Source: a phage. Taken from it: a DNA stretch of 64,000 bases. The DNA lies in the NCBI GenBank assembly GCA_024683775.1, contig GCA_024683775.1_4106.1; one strand, given 5' to 3'. Made by a program: the position numbers and the translations under genes. Under the pieces are notes generated by a model. It had not been told where the DNA came from. It did no database searches and worked only from the letters and a program-made list of their open reading frames with translations. Positions 11,508 to 61,067 of the stretch are shown piece by piece (position 1 is the first letter of the stretch; each line of letters begins with the position of its first letter).

Positions 11508-11535
11508 TTGACATAAGATATCAGTACTGTATAAT
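11508..11535 (+). promoter_or_regulatory. sigma70-like promoter TTGACA-N16-TATAAT with CAGTACTG spacer
   Basis: consensus hexamers read directly; followed by ~90-nt leader before the 11629 gene. Confidence 0.6.
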
Positions 11536-11628
11536 GTTTATATCAAAGGGAATGCAGTGAAAGGAAAGACAGCATAATCGTACTCGTCACTGCGTTTCCA
11601 CCCTTTTAAATTAAATGAGGAATTAACT

Positions 11629-11937
11629 ATGTTTCAAACTAACACTCAAGGTTTTGTAATCATCGATTTGAACCAAAACAGCGGTTATTGGATGAAACCT
11701 ACTGACGCATGTATGCAGTTTGATTTTTTAGGTTACAGGATTAGTGTAAGTACTGGTGCTTCTGTACTGCGTGGTGGTTGTATCGTTGAACATCTGGTAA
11801 CAGATCCTGAAGGCCGTGAGTATGAAATCGCAGGTTCAGTACAAGATGCCATTATGTTTGTATGTCAGCGTGAAATGAATAGTTCGAATTCAAATGCACT
11901 GACTCATGCTCTTTCTCAAGAAGTGGAGGTTCGTTAA
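11629..11937 (+). CDS. hypothetical protein
   Basis: 102-aa ORF. Confidence 0.5.
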   Translation: MFQTNTQGFVIIDLNQNSGYWMKPTDACMQFDFLGYRISVSTGASVLRGGCIVEHLVTDPEGREYEIAGSVQDAIMFVCQREMNSSNSNALTHALSQEVEVR

Positions 11938-12188
11938 TGAAATATATCGTAGCAGTACTCGTTGCATTTTTACTCACTGCATGTGACGCTTCAACCAAAG
12001 AACGCACAAGTGATTTTATTCTCCCTATTGAATTACAAGAAGCAGGATGTAAGATTTATCGTATGCAAAAGGACGGTGCTGGCGTAACCTTGTATACAGT
12101 TTATTGCCCTAATGCAAATACCAGTACTGGATACAGCAGCGGTAAAACACGAATCAATACTTCAGTGATTAATGGAGTACAACAATGA
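11937..12188 (+). CDS. putative lipoprotein
   Basis: signal peptide with lipobox-like LTAC. Confidence 0.5.
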   Translation: MKYIVAVLVAFLLTACDASTKERTSDFILPIELQEAGCKIYRMQKDGAGVTLYTVYCPNANTSTGYSSGKTRINTSVINGVQQ

Positions 12189-12553
12189 GCCTTGATACAA
12201 CCCGTGCAACAGATTTATTAACTCGTCTGAATGATGAAGAATATCTTGCTGAAATAAAGTACAAGCTTGAAAAACTGGCACGAAGTGCTGAAGTAATTGA
12301 AGTTAAAGGTCATTTACCAATGGATCAATTCCATACGTTCAAAGAAGATATGGTTTATTATCCAAATGAAATTTGGATTGAGTGGGAACATTGGACTAAC
12401 AAAACTCTACGCATTGAAGGTTATTGTGTAAATTATGAATCTGAACCTGGTGATGTTACAAAAACTCTCTCCATTTGGTGTACAAAAACACATGAACTAG
12501 TTGAGGTGAATTTGAATTATATGAAAGGTTTCCGTTGGGGTGATGTTAAATGA
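12185..12553 (+). CDS. hypothetical protein
   Basis: 122-aa ORF, ATGA overlap. Confidence 0.45.
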   Translation: MSLDTTRATDLLTRLNDEEYLAEIKYKLEKLARSAEVIEVKGHLPMDQFHTFKEDMVYYPNEIWIEWEHWTNKTLRIEGYCVNYESEPGDVTKTLSIWCTKTHELVEVNLNYMKGFRWGDVK

Positions 12554-12825
12554 TTAAAAAACTATTGACAGTTGTCTTTGTATTCTGTACAATGTTTCTT
12601 ACAGCATGTAATGATGACGGCAGGTTTAGTGCAAAAGACTTAGTTCGTCAGGATTGTACATTCACAGGTAAGTCTTTTATTAACGAGTATGAGGTATGTA
12701 CACAATCAGGCCGTATCTGTGGTGGTTGGGAAAAACGTCAGGAGAGATTGTATGTATATGAATGCCCTGGACATCTCAACAAAGTACTAAGCACACACAA
12801 ACTTGTTTATGATAAGGTTGAATAA
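12550..12825 (+). CDS. putative lipoprotein
   Basis: signal peptide with lipobox-like LTAC. Confidence 0.5.
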   Translation: MIKKLLTVVFVFCTMFLTACNDDGRFSAKDLVRQDCTFTGKSFINEYEVCTQSGRICGGWEKRQERLYVYECPGHLNKVLSTHKLVYDKVE

Positions 12826-13040
12826 TGACTACCAATGAAATGATGCAGGTTATTTGGGATAAAGGTTGTGATATTAAAATCACTAGTACTGATGTTCGTG
12901 TATTCAAAACTGAATATATGGAGTACTTGGACCTTGATACTTATAATAATATTGTATCAATTGAACACAAAGGTGCAGTACTGGAAACAATTGACGTAGT
13001 ACTGAAGAAAGCTACCGACCTATTAGGAGCGGCAGTGTGA
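12825..13040 (+). CDS. hypothetical small protein
   Basis: 71-aa ORF. Confidence 0.45.
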   Translation: MTTNEMMQVIWDKGCDIKITSTDVRVFKTEYMEYLDLDTYNNIVSIEHKGAVLETIDVVLKKATDLLGAAV

Positions 13041-13183
13041 ATAACAAAGAGTGGGAAGAGTACCGTAAGAAGTGCAGGGAGTTTGATAAAGAACTAACTG
13101 GTACAGTGAATGCAGTAATGTGGGTATCTGTAATTATTGCAGTTCTTGCGTTGGGTGCTATTATTATTAATAAATTATTCTAA
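13037..13183 (+). CDS. 48-aa small membrane peptide (GTG start, below ORF-track cutoff)
   Basis: hand translation gives a C-terminal hydrophobic helix VMWVSVIIAVLALGAIII. Confidence 0.25.
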   Translation: MNNKEWEEYRKKCREFDKELTGTVNAVMWVSVIIAVLALGAIIINKLF

Positions 13184-13193
13184 GGCGAATATC

Positions 13194-13394
13194 ATGTTTA
13201 CTTTATATCTCGCAGTAGTTCTCACCAATGGTGAAATCACTCGTACTATTGGTGAAGGTGTATATAAAACACCAGACCAGTGCTACTCTGCTACTCATTG
13301 GCCTCGCGATAGTGGGGATGAAACTCGCACTGAATTCAAATGCATGAAAGTAAAAGGTGATTTTGTTAACCTTAAGGTTATCGAGGCGAAATAA
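13194..13394 (+). CDS. hypothetical small protein with N-terminal hydrophobic segment
   Basis: ATG at 13194 preferred over upstream TTG start of the track ORF. Confidence 0.45.
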   Translation: MFTLYLAVVLTNGEITRTIGEGVYKTPDQCYSATHWPRDSGDETRTEFKCMKVKGDFVNLKVIEAK

Positions 13395-13909
13395 TGGATA
13401 TTAATGAGTTGTTGATCTTATTGTTTAATCGTGGAAATGATGTAAGACGTTCTGAATATCAAGACAAAATTCACATTGAAACTGATAAATGTTATGGTAA
13501 AACAACTCATGAGATTTTGAAGCCAAATGGCAAACGATATGCCGATGTATGTTTTCATGAACGAAGTGATGGTAGTGAAATAATCAGTACTGAAATTGTG
13601 TTTTATGATAGATCCTCGGCAGGTTCGTATGAAATAGAACTTATATATTGCCCTGGTTCAGAAACACACAATAAACGTCAGATATTATATGATGTTTATT
13701 CACCTCCAGGTGTAGCTGAATATTTTGTTATTGATTACAGTACTGAAGAAAGTGTGTTTCAACAGAGCTTGATTCATAACTTCCAGTTGAATGATCCAAA
13801 TGTACCAAAGTTGTTCAAACTACTCGATACTATCGATGTTGATTTTGAATTTGTTATGTGCATTAGAACTTCCTTGATCGATGAATTTATGGAACTACTT
13901 AATATATGA
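13394..13909 (+). CDS. hypothetical protein
   Basis: 171-aa ORF. Confidence 0.5.
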   Translation: MDINELLILLFNRGNDVRRSEYQDKIHIETDKCYGKTTHEILKPNGKRYADVCFHERSDGSEIISTEIVFYDRSSAGSYEIELIYCPGSETHNKRQILYDVYSPPGVAEYFVIDYSTEESVFQQSLIHNFQLNDPNVPKLFKLLDTIDVDFEFVMCIRTSLIDEFMELLNI

Positions 13910-59568: not shown

Positions 59569-59569
59569 T

Positions 59570-59755
59570 ATGCATAGAGAATACTATATACAATTTGTTA
59601 AAGGGAACTACAAACACGCCGTCCCCGTAAACCCCTTAAATTCTAATGACCCAAGTACTATATTCTTGTTCCATGACGCAATACGTACAGTACTCAATAC
59701 TAAAGATGAACAGGTGCAGTACGTATTCTTACTATTACTTATATACAGACACTAA
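59570..59755 (+). CDS. mini-protein paralog C18
   Basis: 61 aa; MHREYYIQFV... Confidence 0.5.
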   Translation: MHREYYIQFVKGNYKHAVPVNPLNSNDPSTIFLFHDAIRTVLNTKDEQVQYVFLLLLIYRH

Positions 59756-59760
59756 CTAAT

Positions 59761-59970
59761 ATGAATAAAGAACATAAAGAATTCTATTCCAAACACCTCA
59801 GCCCCACAGAACAAATGTTTCTAAGGACTACTGCACCTTTAAGTACTGATACTTATTTCGGCAGAGTATGCTACAATAATTGTATTCAAATGACTTTAAA
59901 CGCAAACGACAATAATAACAGTACTAATATGTACTCCGGCATCATAGGTATACTATTCCTATATGAATAA
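59761..59970 (+). CDS. mini-protein paralog C19
   Basis: 69 aa; MNKEHKEFYSKHL...; near-duplicate of C16. Confidence 0.5.
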   Translation: MNKEHKEFYSKHLSPTEQMFLRTTAPLSTDTYFGRVCYNNCIQMTLNANDNNNSTNMYSGIIGILFLYE

Positions 59971-60154
59971 AGAACATAAAGATTTCTATATAAGTAAACT
60001 AAAAGAAAACGAACAAGCATGGGTTAACAATTTAATCCCCCTGGCAATGACTCAATACGAATTTAATATGTGTACAAAGATTGTTTTAACTACTAATGAT
60101 ATCTCTAATACGTACTACTTCCTATTAAGAGTACTATATGGTACTTTGAAATAA
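59963..60154 (+). CDS. mini-protein paralog C20
   Basis: 63 aa; MNKEHKDFYISKL... Confidence 0.5.
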   Translation: MNKEHKDFYISKLKENEQAWVNNLIPLAMTQYEFNMCTKIVLTTNDISNTYYFLLRVLYGTLK

Positions 60155-60165
60155 TAAGGTATACT

Positions 60166-60372
60166 ATGCAGAACATAAAAAACTATAAAGAGTACTATAT
60201 AAGTAAACTACCACCGACTGACCAAGCATGGATTAGATCTATAATAGTACTGGCATTTAATAGATATGCATTTAACAGATGTACCGAGATTGCTATAGAC
60301 CCTTATAATATTAAAGAGAATGTACAGCATAATCAGTACTACTATATGTTAATGCTTATATATAGGAAGTAA
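60166..60372 (+). CDS. mini-protein paralog C21
   Basis: 68 aa; ...KEYYISKLPPTDQAW... Confidence 0.5.
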   Translation: MQNIKNYKEYYISKLPPTDQAWIRSIIVLAFNRYAFNRCTEIAIDPYNIKENVQHNQYYYMLMLIYRK

Positions 60373-60498
60373 TTCAACATATAGACAGGGGAAGCTCCGC
60401 AGGGAAAGCATTGGACAGGCTTTAACAATTAGAAGAATTGTTAAAATTCAGCCTGGACAAATGCGATCACTAGGATTCTCCCCAGGCTAAACCCCGTA

Positions 60499-60580
60499 AT
60501 CATATGTAGTCATAAGTAATCATATATAAACATTTAAGTAATCATTTATAATCACTACTGTGATTAGTATTGAGTACTAG
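60499..60580. repeat. cluster of GTAATCA / TGATTAG short repeats
   Basis: GTAATCA read four times in direct orientation plus inverted copies. Confidence 0.45.
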
Positions 60581-61039
60581 AGTGTAATAGAGTACAGGAA
60601 TGTGCTCGTTTAATCAAGAACGTAGCAGTACTGCCCCAAAAGTATTCAGTACTGAAGGTGTCGATATGCCACTAAGTAGGCAGAGGAAGTCTGCCGTACT
60701 TTGTAGTTTCCAAGCTCCTTTTCCATTTTGCAAATTACATCAAATGTAATCAAAAGTAATCACGCAATGATTAGTACTGAATTATTACTTTCACCTTAAT
60801 TTCAATTACCCTTTTACCCTTCGGGGTAAAATTCAATTACCCCTTGAGGCTCCAGCAAAAAGTTGGTTAGTACTCCATCCTAAATCTCGATCCTAAAAAT
60901 TTTGGAGTACCTATGAAATAAAAGTTGGATCTTCGAAAGTTGAAATTTACGTTGGGACGTTTATGATTTGTGGGATATAATGATGTTTGTAGTCGGGTAG
61001 TTCTCAAGAATATCAGTACTGAATGGTGAAAGAAAGTTA

Positions 61040-61067
61040 TTGACATTATGATTCAGTACTGTATAAT
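61040..61067 (+). promoter_or_regulatory. sigma70-like promoter TTGACA-N16-TATAAT with CAGTACTG spacer inside the noncoding region
   Basis: hexamers read directly; no convincing ORF downstream. Confidence 0.5.

What the first reader, a model, noticed from the sequence alone, without database searches (positions are those of the whole stretch)
11508..61067. Family of near-identical strong promoters with a CAGTACTG spacer box
TTGACA-N16-TATAATG with the same spacer ending (T)CAGTACTG-TATAATG occurs at 11508, 15470, 26833 and 61040. Such exact conservation of the spacer is not needed for sigma70 recognition, so it may be an operator for a phage or host regulator overlapping the -10 region.
Basis: partly seen in the sequence, partly recalled or inferred. 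Interest (0 to 1): 0.5.

Follow-up and report, generated by a model that had tools for sequence, protein, structure and literature searches.

The report
Phage early promoters carrying hyper-abundant palindrome
The four look-alike promoters are real early promoters of a giant E. coli phage. Their conserved CAGTACTG "spacer box" is one copy of a palindrome found at 10 to 70 times the chance level across the whole genome, genes included, which points to an unknown protein that reads or marks phage DNA.

Summary
TTGACA-N8-(C/T)AGTACTG-TATAATG occurs at 11508, 15470 (TAGTACTG), 26833 and 61040. There is a fifth copy on the minus strand (61805-61832) and there are several variants.

The flanks and downstream genes are unrelated, so duplication of promoter-gene blocks is refuted.

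The window is an Asteriusvirus (PBECO4/121Q-like jumbo coliphage). The same promoter architecture recurs at least a dozen times per genome, mainly in the ~21-kb terminal repeat that holds the small early genes. It also occurs in the different genus of Klebsiella phage RaK2.

The box is not private to promoters:
- CAGTACTG occurs 48 times in the window (about 1 expected). Its core AGTACT occurs 218 times (22 expected).
- Sites lie in all reading frames. AGTACT is 3.3 times more frequent than synonymous-codon shuffles allow.
- Sites are more conserved than background.
- The enrichment is shared by five enterobacterial jumbo-phage lineages. All five also lack GCGC completely. PA5oct, T4 and E. 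coli show neither trait.

Best reading: AGTACT is the site of an unidentified clade-specific dimeric DNA-binding or DNA-modifying protein. At early promoters it sits at -40/-35 and -20/-13, where occupancy would control RNA polymerase. The reader protein and its effect are inferred, not shown.

The parts
11508..11535 (+). Box promoter: -35 TTGACA (11508-11513), box CAGTACTG (11522-11529), -10 TATAAT (11530-11535). It lies upstream of ORF 11629-11937.
   Evidence: The orthologous promoter in 121Q keeps the box. The transcript begins with a stable 5' hairpin, z = -4.0.
15470..15497 (+). Box promoter with the variant box TAGTACTG (15484-15491). It lies upstream of ORF 15545-15871.
   Evidence: It is kept in 121Q. 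No 5' hairpin was found.
26833..26860 (+). Box promoter, box at 26847-26854. It lies upstream of ORF 26908-27462.
   Evidence: It is kept in 121Q. 5' hairpin GGGGATGA/TCATCCCC.
61040..61067 (+). Box promoter, box at 61054-61061. It is the first promoter inside the terminal repeat, 366 bp from the physical left end of the genome. A further TCAGTACTGA lies 40 bp upstream (61014-61021). It transcribes ORF-free DNA.
   Evidence: (12/12 match)
61805..61832 (-). Fifth box promoter: TTGCTT-N8-CAGTACTG-TATAAT. It is convergent with the promoter at 61040.
63860..63888 (+). Offset variant: TTGACT-N8-CAGTACTG-G-CATAAT. The spacer is 17 nt and the TG falls in the extended -10 position.
55521..55549 (+). 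Offset variant: TTGACA-N6-CAGTACTG-ATG-TACTAT.
63174..63207 (+). Two-box variant: AGTACT-N15-AGTACT-T-TATAAT, with the boxes 21 bp apart.
62377..62409 (+). Promoter of the first terminal-repeat gene. AGTACT is fused to the -35 (AGTACTTGCAC), a partial box CGTACTG lies in the spacer, and the -10 is TATAAT.
   Evidence: 5' hairpin, z = -3.7.
62837..62869 (+). Upstream-box promoter: AGTACTTGCAA-N16-TATAAT.
63514..63546 (+). Upstream-box promoter: AGTACTTGCTA-N16-TATAAT.
62201..62350 (+). A 53-bp tandem repeat (2.8 copies) just upstream of the first terminal-repeat gene. Each copy carries TTGATTCAGTACTGAATAAT; the first two copies also carry a second AGTACT 8 bp downstream of the box.
61197..61230 (+). 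Terminator-like hairpin whose stem is made of two CAGTACTG copies. It lies about 130 nt (start) to 165 nt (end) downstream of the promoter at 61040.
60626..60654 (.). Two CAGTACTG boxes 21-49 bp to the left of the position that aligns with the physical genome terminus (60675).
1..64000 (.). Window-wide set of 218 AGTACT and 48 CAGTACTG sites. Density is 2.95/kb in coding DNA and 7.1/kb in intergenic DNA, against 0.34/kb expected. The densest stretch is 56-64 kb.

Best explanation
What is shown:
- The four sites belong to a large family of consensus sigma-70-type early promoters of Rak2-like jumbo phages.
- Family consensus: ttaaaAAGTACTTGACAa-N7-yAGTACTG-TATAAT-gTTTACATcaaGGGGa, followed by a 5' hairpin and a Shine-Dalgarno sequence.
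- The CAGTACTG box is one copy of a hyper-abundant palindrome (core AGTACT). Selection at the DNA level keeps it throughout these genomes.
- Promoters use it at two fixed places: fused to the upstream edge of the -35, and abutting the -10. The two places are 20-21 bp apart.

What is inferred:
- AGTACT is the recognition site of a clade-specific, probably homodimeric protein that binds phage DNA. The host has about 50 times fewer sites per kb.
- At early promoters, occupancy of the two boxes flanking the -35 would block or modulate the host sigma-70 RNA polymerase (E-sigma70). The whole early set, concentrated in the ~21-kb terminal repeat, would then be switched together, most likely off after the early phase.
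- The many intragenic sites would serve a genome-wide role of the same protein, such as coating or marking phage DNA.
For: - Enrichment: CAGTACTG occurs 48 times against about 1 expected, AGTACT 218 against 22.
- Sites fall in all three frames. AGTACT is at 169 against 51 +/- 6 in synonymous-codon shuffles, and CAGTACTG at 29 against 3.9 +/- 1.7.
- Conservation against 121Q: 71% of AGTACT sites are fully conserved, against 45% for background 6-mers. In coding DNA alone it is 61/87 against 44%.
- AGTACT is the only enriched 6-bp palindrome in a genome where at least 14 other 6-bp palindromes have zero copies.
- Enrichment grades outward from GTAC (2.9x) to AGTACT (10x) to CAGTACTG (70x), with symmetric C/G flanks.
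- The exact promoter architecture is shared with RaK2, a different genus, and with a metagenomic relative.
- Distances between AGTACT pairs peak at 20-21 bp: 33 pairs against about 4 at other distances.
- Flanks and downstream genes are unrelated.
- Box promoters and the highest AGTACT density (about 6.6/kb) fill the terminal repeat, and the density stops abruptly at its end.
- E. coli has 3 AGTACT in 50 kb.
Against: - No binding protein was identified. Pfam and PHROGs scans of neighbouring small proteins gave nothing, and a structure model of the first terminal-repeat gene was too poor to use.
- Specificity at the four central bases is as sharp as that of a restriction or modification enzyme: single-mismatch variants are only about 1.3x enriched.
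- A palindrome this abundant in an otherwise palindrome-purged genome suggests it is protected by methylation. The phage encodes a Dam-family N6-adenine methyltransferase of unknown specificity.
- Mimasvirus CBB shares the genome-wide enrichment, but its published RpoD-like promoters lack the box. The genome-wide role and the promoter role can therefore be separated.
- Orthologous promoter comparisons are too close to show extra constraint on the box: 94.3% identity against 91.5% for the rest of the spacer.
Confidence: 0.42

Rival explanations
1. Epigenetic mark. AGTACT (or GTAC) is the target of a phage-encoded DNA methyltransferase. The methylation state of the boxes at -35 and next to -10 sets promoter activity: fully methylated incoming DNA behaves differently from newly replicated DNA. 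The genome-wide density serves a methylation-dependent function, or protection of the sites.
For: - The core GTAC is sharply defined, like a modification site.
- AGTACT is the only abundant palindrome in a genome that has purged GCGC and many 6-bp palindromes. This would be a liability unless the site is protected.
- 121Q gp417 is a PF05869 Dam-family N6-adenine methyltransferase with a syntenic 63%-identical ortholog in RaK2.
- RaK2, CBB and Sharanji are reported to encode several DNA methyltransferases (PMC3622015, PMC5259590, PMC11895373).
Against: - The specificity of the methyltransferases is unknown, and the Dam family is widespread in phages without this signature.
- Enrichment continues beyond the hexamer to symmetric flanks. 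That fits a DNA-binding dimer better.
- Methylation alone does not explain why sites are selected to be frequent.
Confidence: 0.22
2. Promoter-intrinsic element. The box is contacted by RNA polymerase itself (spacer or extended -10 region), or it tunes spacer geometry for very strong promoters. The genome-wide excess of AGTACT is an unrelated phenomenon.
For: - The TG of the box abuts TATAAT, and in two variants it sits in the canonical TGn position.
- All members have a 16-nt spacer and near-consensus hexamers.
- Extended conservation outside the hexamers is known for T4 and T5 early promoters (my own knowledge).
Against: - The same hexamer recurs fused to the -35, and as a palindrome.
- TG is at -14/-13, not -15/-14, in the main class.
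- Equally strong consensus promoters in the window lack the box.
- It would take a coincidence for the spacer motif to equal the genome's single hyper-abundant palindrome.
Confidence: 0.1
3. By-product of a mutational or repair bias, or of a selfishly spreading palindrome of the HIP1 type. AGTACT accumulates everywhere, promoters included, without a function of its own.
For: - Enrichment is spread over coding and non-coding DNA and over five lineages.
- Sites turn over: 30 were lost and 25 gained against 121Q.
Against: - Placement in promoters is fixed to the nucleotide in two genera.
- Existing sites are conserved above background.
- Whole blocks of several kb are completely free of AGTACT, or carry only the one-strand variant AGTACA. 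A uniform bias would not produce this.
Confidence: 0.1
4. Recent duplication of promoter-gene blocks. This is the refuter named by the first reader.
For: None found.
Against: - There are no BLAST matches between the 400-bp upstream or 600-bp downstream flanks of the window copies. The only hit is the physically overlapping convergent pair.
- The downstream proteins share no similarity.
- The same 28-bp core occurs in RaK2, whose neighbouring genes are different.
Confidence: 0.01
5. Binding site of a host protein: SlmA, whose site has an AGTACT core, or LexA, whose half-site is TACTGTATAT.
For: - The SlmA consensus GTGAGTACTCAC contains AGTACT (PMC3020112).
- TACTGTATAA resembles a LexA half-site (my own knowledge).
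Against: - SlmA needs G1, T2, a purine at position 3, A4 and G5 (PMC3020112). The phage flank is C at position 3.
- GTRAGYRCTYAC has 0 matches in all phage loci examined.
- GAGTACTC occurs once in the window.
- CTGT-N8-ACAG occurs 3 times, never at a box.
Confidence: 0.03

Closest known systems
Early (host-takeover) promoters in long terminal repeats of virulent phages: T5 pre-early promoters and the SPO1 host-takeover module with its TF1 protein (my own knowledge)
   Same: - Many strong, near-consensus host-sigma promoters.
- Each drives one or a few very small genes, packed into a long direct terminal repeat at the genome end.
- Sequence is conserved outside the two hexamers.
- In SPO1, the phage DNA-binding protein TF1 prefers phage DNA and binds early promoters.
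   Different: - Here the extra conserved element is an exact palindrome that is also hyper-abundant genome-wide.
- Discrimination of phage DNA would rest on a sequence motif rather than on a modified base.
- No TF1-like protein has been identified.
HIP1 (GCGATCGC), the highly iterated palindrome of cyanobacteria (my own knowledge)
   Same: - An 8-bp palindrome far above expectation in both coding and non-coding DNA.
- Kept across related genomes.
- Suspected link to a cognate methyltransferase.
- Function unresolved.
   Different: - The genome is a phage, not a bacterium.
- The sequence is different.
- It is built at fixed positions into a promoter family and is concentrated in the terminal repeat.
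- It is accompanied by total loss of GCGC.
Stoperators of cluster A mycobacteriophages such as L5, and the scattered C1 operators of P1 (my own knowledge)
   Same: - One repressor site reused at tens of places along a phage genome.
- Some of the sites overlap promoters.
   Different: - Those sites are asymmetric, mostly intergenic and number about 15-35 per genome.
- Here the site is a palindrome, mostly intragenic, and extrapolates to on the order of a thousand copies per genome.
- The phage here is virulent.
GATC/Dam-controlled promoters (IS10 transposase, P1 cre, Mu mom) and SeqA (my own knowledge)
   Same: - A short methylatable palindrome placed in the -35 or -10 region.
- Promoter activity is coupled to replication state.
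- The same site is used genome-wide by other readers.
   Different: - GATC is not strongly over-represented in its genomes.
- Methylation of AGTACT has not been shown here.
RpoD-like promoters reported for CBB, GAP32 and PA5oct (PMC5259590, PMC7318152)
   Same: - Same phage group and the same TTGACA/TATAAT class.
- An A-rich upstream element.
- Clustering before short early ORFs and in the terminal repeat.
   Different: - The published CBB promoter list shows no CAGTACTG box.
- None of the papers read mentions the palindrome.

Membership tests
Sigma-70-type phage early promoter | -35 TTGACA-like and -10 TATAAT-like hexamers, 16-18 bp apart | tested here: met
   12/12 matches with a 16-nt spacer at 11508, 15470, 26833 and 61040.
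Sigma-70-type phage early promoter | Intergenic position, co-oriented with the downstream gene | tested here: met
   11508, 15470 and 26833 lie 50-95 bp before ORF starts. 61040 and 61832 face ORF-free DNA.
Sigma-70-type phage early promoter | Concentration in the early (host-takeover) region | tested here: met
   All 12 copies found in fEgEco12 lie inside the 21-kb terminal repeat, and about 11 of the 12 found in this part of 121Q lie in its homologous region. Three of the four window sites lie outside the repeat.
Sigma-70-type phage early promoter | Initiation by host E-sigma70 early in infection | not testable with these tools
   No transcript data were found for this genus.
Repressor operator (lambda-type operator or stoperator) | Dyad symmetry suited to a dimer | tested here: met
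   CAGTACTG is a perfect 8-bp palindrome. The flanks are symmetric, C at -1 in 44% and G at +1 in 46% of sites.
Repressor operator (lambda-type operator or stoperator) | Fixed overlap with the core promoter | tested here: met
   The box abuts TATAAT in about 40 paralogs. A second box is fused to the -35, 20-21 bp away.
Repressor operator (lambda-type operator or stoperator) | Sites limited to regulatory DNA, tens per genome | tested here: not met
   29 of 48 CAGTACTG and 169 of 218 AGTACT copies are inside ORFs.
Repressor operator (lambda-type operator or stoperator) | Cognate DNA-binding protein | tested here: inconclusive
   No HTH or RHH family was found in the proteins scanned. The model of the first terminal-repeat gene had pLDDT 49.8. 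Most of the genome's proteins were not scanned.
Highly iterated palindrome (HIP1 type) | Short palindrome far above expectation in coding and non-coding DNA | tested here: met
Highly iterated palindrome (HIP1 type) | Maintained across related genomes, with sites conserved above background | tested here: met
Highly iterated palindrome (HIP1 type) | Cognate methyltransferase for the motif | tested here: inconclusive
   A Dam-family methyltransferase is present but its specificity is unknown.
SlmA-binding site | GTRAGYRCTYAC (G1, T2, A4 and G5 required; PMC3020112) | tested here: not met
   0 matches in the window and in all phage loci.
LexA SOS box | CTGT-N8-ACAG | tested here: not met
   3 matches in the window, none at a box.
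Extended -10 promoter | TG at -15/-14 (TGnTATAAT) | tested here: not met
   In the main class TG is directly adjacent to TATAAT. Only 63860 has TGn.

The most novel reading that the evidence does not exclude
Enterobacterial Rak2-like jumbo phages have unmodified, palindrome-purged genomes. They may tell their own DNA from host DNA by sequence composition, using two linked signatures:
- Total absence of GCGC. The host has about 7 per kb, so a phage nuclease or other factor could act on host DNA only.
- A selected, hyper-abundant palindrome, AGTACT, at 1.5-7 per kb against 0.06 per kb in the host. An unknown phage protein would read it.

The same mark is wired into the -35 flank and the spacer of the immediate-early promoters in the terminal repeat. 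In defined blocks it is replaced by a strand-polar variant (AGTACA). Together these hint at a directional DNA process as well as transcriptional control.
Probability: 0.25. Interest if true: 0.85.

Novelty: new variant of a known kind. Interest (0 to 1): 0.62.

Why it matters
If a dedicated reader of AGTACT exists, it would be a master handle on the early programme of a large, poorly understood group of jumbo phages that are candidates for therapy against E. coli, Klebsiella and Salmonella. More than 80% of their genes are of unknown function.

It would also be an example of a virus marking its own genome by motif density rather than by base modification.

In practice:
- The promoter cassette (UP-like tract, two boxes, consensus hexamers, 5' hairpin) is a compact, very strong and possibly switchable expression element.
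- The motif gives a simple bait for finding the regulator.

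Tried and rejected
- **Duplication of promoter-gene blocks.** Rejected: no similarity between flanks or between downstream proteins.
- **Codon or peptide artefact.** Rejected: sites lie in all frames, and AGTACT is 3.3-fold (CAGTACTG about 7-fold) above synonymous shuffles.
- **Host SlmA.** Rejected: 0 SlmA-like sites (PMC3020112).
- **LexA.** Rejected.
- **Known RNA families in the window.** None found. No tRNAs either.
- **Literature.** No mention of the motif in the papers read on CBB, RaK2, PA5oct, fEgEco12 or Sharanji, or in full-text searches.
- **Candidate reader near the boxes.**
  - The first terminal-repeat gene (62465-62827) has only Asteriusvirus homologs, and its AlphaFold model was unusable at pLDDT 49.8.
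  - Pfam and PHROGs scans of 10 window proteins, and Pfam scans of 10 proteins from the polar block plus six further 121Q proteins, gave nothing DNA-binding.
  - 121Q gp518, annotated as a "starvation-inducible DNA-binding protein", is ferritin/Dps-like.
- **Methyltransferase link.** The Dam-family gp417 is conserved in RaK2, but the family is too widespread to be informative. It has no relative with a solved structure.
- **Extra constraint on the box in orthologous promoters.** Inconclusive, because the genomes are too similar.
- **Helical phasing of intragenic sites.** None seen outside promoters.
- **Base-calling artefact as the cause of the AGTACA block.** Rejected: the block is reproduced in four independent genomes.

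Full report
**Identity of the window**

The window matches Asteriusvirus jumbo coliphages. It is 99.2% identical to phage EC.P1 over 24 kb and about 88% identical to 121Q and PBECO4 over the aligned parts (71% and 67% of that stretch).

fEgEco12 is a close relative whose 20,993-bp direct terminal repeats were confirmed experimentally (PMC13070987). Its position 1 aligns with window position 60,675 at 96% identity over 3.3 kb. So window 60,675-64,000 is the beginning of the terminal repeat, and the rest of the window is the unique DNA that precedes the right-hand repeat copy.

**The observation**

All four sites exist as described. The only correction is that the box at 15470 reads TAGTACTG.

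CAGTACTGTATAAT with at most 1 mismatch occurs 9 times against 0.11 expected.

Further members are:
- a fifth full copy on the minus strand (61805-61832);
- offset variants at 63860 and 55521;
- a two-box variant at 63174;
- three promoters in which AGTACT is fused to the -35 instead (62377, 62837, 63514).

**Not duplicated blocks**

The 400-bp upstream flanks, the 600-bp downstream flanks and the downstream proteins of the window copies share no detectable similarity. This settles the refuter named in the finding. Only a core of about 50 bp is shared.

**A promoter family shared between genera**

The exact string TTGACA-N8-CAGTACTG-TATAAT was searched in 2.9 million viral contigs. It was found only in RaK2 (Klebsiella, genus Alcyoneusvirus; 7 copies), in 121Q (4 copies) and in one 109-kb metagenomic contig.

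Relaxed searches give at least 12 members in the 121Q early region and 12 in fEgEco12.

The family alignment gives this cassette: ttaaaAAGTACTTGACAa-N7-yAGTACTG-TATAAT-gTTTACATcaaGGGGa, then a hairpin and AGGAG.

Two AGTACT boxes therefore flank the -35. AGTACT pairs 20-21 bp apart occur 33 times, against about 4 at neighbouring distances.

Six of eight window transcripts begin with a stable hairpin.

All 12 fEgEco12 copies lie inside the terminal repeat. The window's 61040 promoter is the first of them, 366 bp from the genome end. This matches published descriptions of RpoD-like promoters clustered before short early ORFs and in the terminal repeat of related phages (PMC5259590). The published CBB promoter list, however, shows no such box.

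**The box is not private to promoters**

- CAGTACTG occurs 48 times in the window (about 1 expected), AGTACT 218 times (22 expected) and GTAC 597 times (209 expected).
- 169 AGTACT copies lie inside ORFs, in all three frames (84/34/51). Density is 2.95/kb in coding DNA and 7.1/kb in intergenic DNA, against 0.34/kb expected.
- I shuffled synonymous codons within each gene. AGTACT is expected 51 +/- 6 times and observed 169 times. CAGTACTG is expected 3.9 +/- 1.7 times and observed 29 times.
- Against 121Q (84% identity), 75 of 105 AGTACT sites are fully conserved, compared with 45% of all 6-mers. In coding DNA it is 61 of 87 against 44%. Sites also turn over, with 30 lost and 25 gained.
- AGTACT is the only enriched 6-bp palindrome. 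At least 14 others have zero copies.
- Single-mismatch variants at the four central positions are only about 1.3x enriched. Variants at the outer position are 1.8-2.9x enriched.

**Phyletic spread**

AGTACT enrichment of 4.6-10x is found in:
- Asteriusvirus;
- Alcyoneusvirus (RaK2);
- Mimasvirus (GAP32, CBB);
- Eneladusvirus (fHe-Yen9-03);
- Salmonella phage Munch.

It appears in replication and structural gene regions as well. It is absent from Pseudomonas phage PA5oct, from T4 and from E. coli K-12.

Exactly the same five lineages have zero GCGC. In the window, 63 copies are expected from composition and 37 +/- 5 from synonymous shuffles. E. coli has 342 GCGC and 3 AGTACT in 50 kb. These two words are therefore near-perfect discriminators of phage DNA from host DNA.

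**Distribution along the genome**

| Region | AGTACT per kb | Source |
|---|---|---|
| 121Q replication and structural region | about 1.5 | |
| Unique part of the window | about 3 | |
| Terminal repeat | about 6.6 | |

At the end of the terminal repeat the density drops to zero for 4.5 kb.

**Mechanism**

The following are shown:
- the sites and their excess over chance;
- selection at the DNA level;
- fixed placement in promoters;
- conservation between genera.

The rest is inferred. A perfect dyad with symmetric flanks and graded enrichment, present once or twice at fixed promoter positions and at high density along the genome, is most simply explained by one clade-specific dimeric protein that recognises AGTACT.

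Two sites 20 bp apart bracketing the -35 would let such a protein exclude RNA polymerase. That would give coordinated shut-off of the early set.

The main rival is that the site is a methylation target. Its specificity is sharp, and a palindrome-purged genome could hardly afford an unprotected abundant palindrome. A Dam-family methyltransferase is encoded, but nothing links it to GTAC.

An element intrinsic to RNA polymerase, a neutral bias and host factors are less likely, for the reasons given under the rival explanations.

I could not identify the reader protein.

**Comparison with known systems**

The promoters are members of the known class of sigma-70-type phage early promoters.

The box behaves like an operator in position and symmetry. 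It fails the operator criterion of being confined to regulatory DNA.

The genome-wide behaviour matches the highly iterated palindrome HIP1 of cyanobacteria in every feature I could test, except the cognate methyltransferase, which remains open.

The overall layout is many strong early promoters before tiny genes in a long terminal repeat. This resembles the T5 pre-early region and the SPO1 host-takeover module with TF1.

I found no description of this palindrome in the literature searched.

**Verdict**

It is too narrow, because the box is one instance of a selected, clade-wide, genome-wide palindrome.

That palindrome travels together with total GCGC avoidance, is concentrated in the terminal repeat, and has AGTACT-free and strand-polar blocks next to it. 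Together these make it more interesting than a simple operator. The reader protein and the mechanism remain inferred.

Noticed in passing
window 1-64000; also loci L001-L003, L005, L006, L015, L016, L019-L023: GCGC is completely absent: 0 copies in the window against 63 expected from composition and 37 +/- 5 from synonymous shuffles. It is also absent from every sampled stretch of five enterobacterial jumbo-phage lineages. It is at normal levels in PA5oct and T4 and abundant in E. coli (342 per 50 kb). At least 14 six-base palindromes also have zero copies, including GGTACC, CGTACG, CTGCAG, CAGCTG and CTCGAG.
   Followed up: partly
121Q record 161,800-169,384 (L016 39928-47512); PBECO4 L018; CRJP21 L017; fEgEco12 L021 about 25,500-36,000: A sharply bounded block has no AGTACT at all. 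It has 41 copies of AGTACA on one strand and none of the reverse complement TGTACT. The copies lie in all reading frames, and 35-36 of them are conserved in other genomes. The 4.5 kb just after the terminal repeat shows the opposite polarity (TGTACT 8, AGTACA 1), although all genes stay on the same strand.
   Followed up: partly
window 60400-62400: A 2-kb ORF-free region is 88-98% conserved across the Asteriusviruses listed. It holds:
- the position that aligns with the physical genome terminus (60675);
- several repeat families: GTAATCA repeats at 60496-60551, a 24-bp GGACGGCTAAAC repeat at 61482-61553, GATAGTTCCCC repeats and GAATTTTGGGCG repeats;
- the convergent promoters at 61040 and 61832;
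- 12 of the window's 48 CAGTACTG copies.

It could hold a packaging site, a replication origin or non-coding RNAs.
   Followed up: partly
window 17249, 20843, 21622, 24383, 29007, 29590 (+ strand): A second promoter family has the -35 TTGACT lying inside a terminator hairpin: GGGTTGACTTCGGTCAACCC, then TTTTTGC, then TATAAT. This combined terminator-promoter cassette has no AGTACT box.
   Followed up: no
window 8146-9111 (+): A phage-encoded sigma-70-family sigma factor. Pfam regions 2 and 3 are detected, and the gene is orthologous to 121Q gp167. Its promoter specificity is unknown.
   Followed up: partly
window 55575-60372 (+): About 22 tandem ORFs of 59-75 aa, 21 of which form one paralog family with a conserved C-terminal ...Y(T/R)EVLKLI motif. 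They lie directly before the terminal repeat.
   Followed up: partly
window 32962-55470 (- strand): An array of about 18 paralogous genes of 360-450 aa. Relatives annotate them as RCC1-like repeat proteins. Their short spacers carry repeated sequences that include CAGTACTG (for example 49463 and 50709).
   Followed up: no
window 11543-11610, 26868-26925, 61075-61142, 62412-62470, 62877-62935, 63554-63612: Transcripts from the early promoters begin with a stable GGGG...CCCC-type hairpin a few nucleotides after the start. The stem sequence varies between copies while the pairing is kept. These are possibly mRNA-stabilising 5' structures.
   Followed up: partly
locus L024 (T4 100,001-112,000): In the 12 kb of T4 sampled, GTAC is strongly under-represented (12 against 42 expected). 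This is the opposite of the jumbo phages.
   Followed up: no
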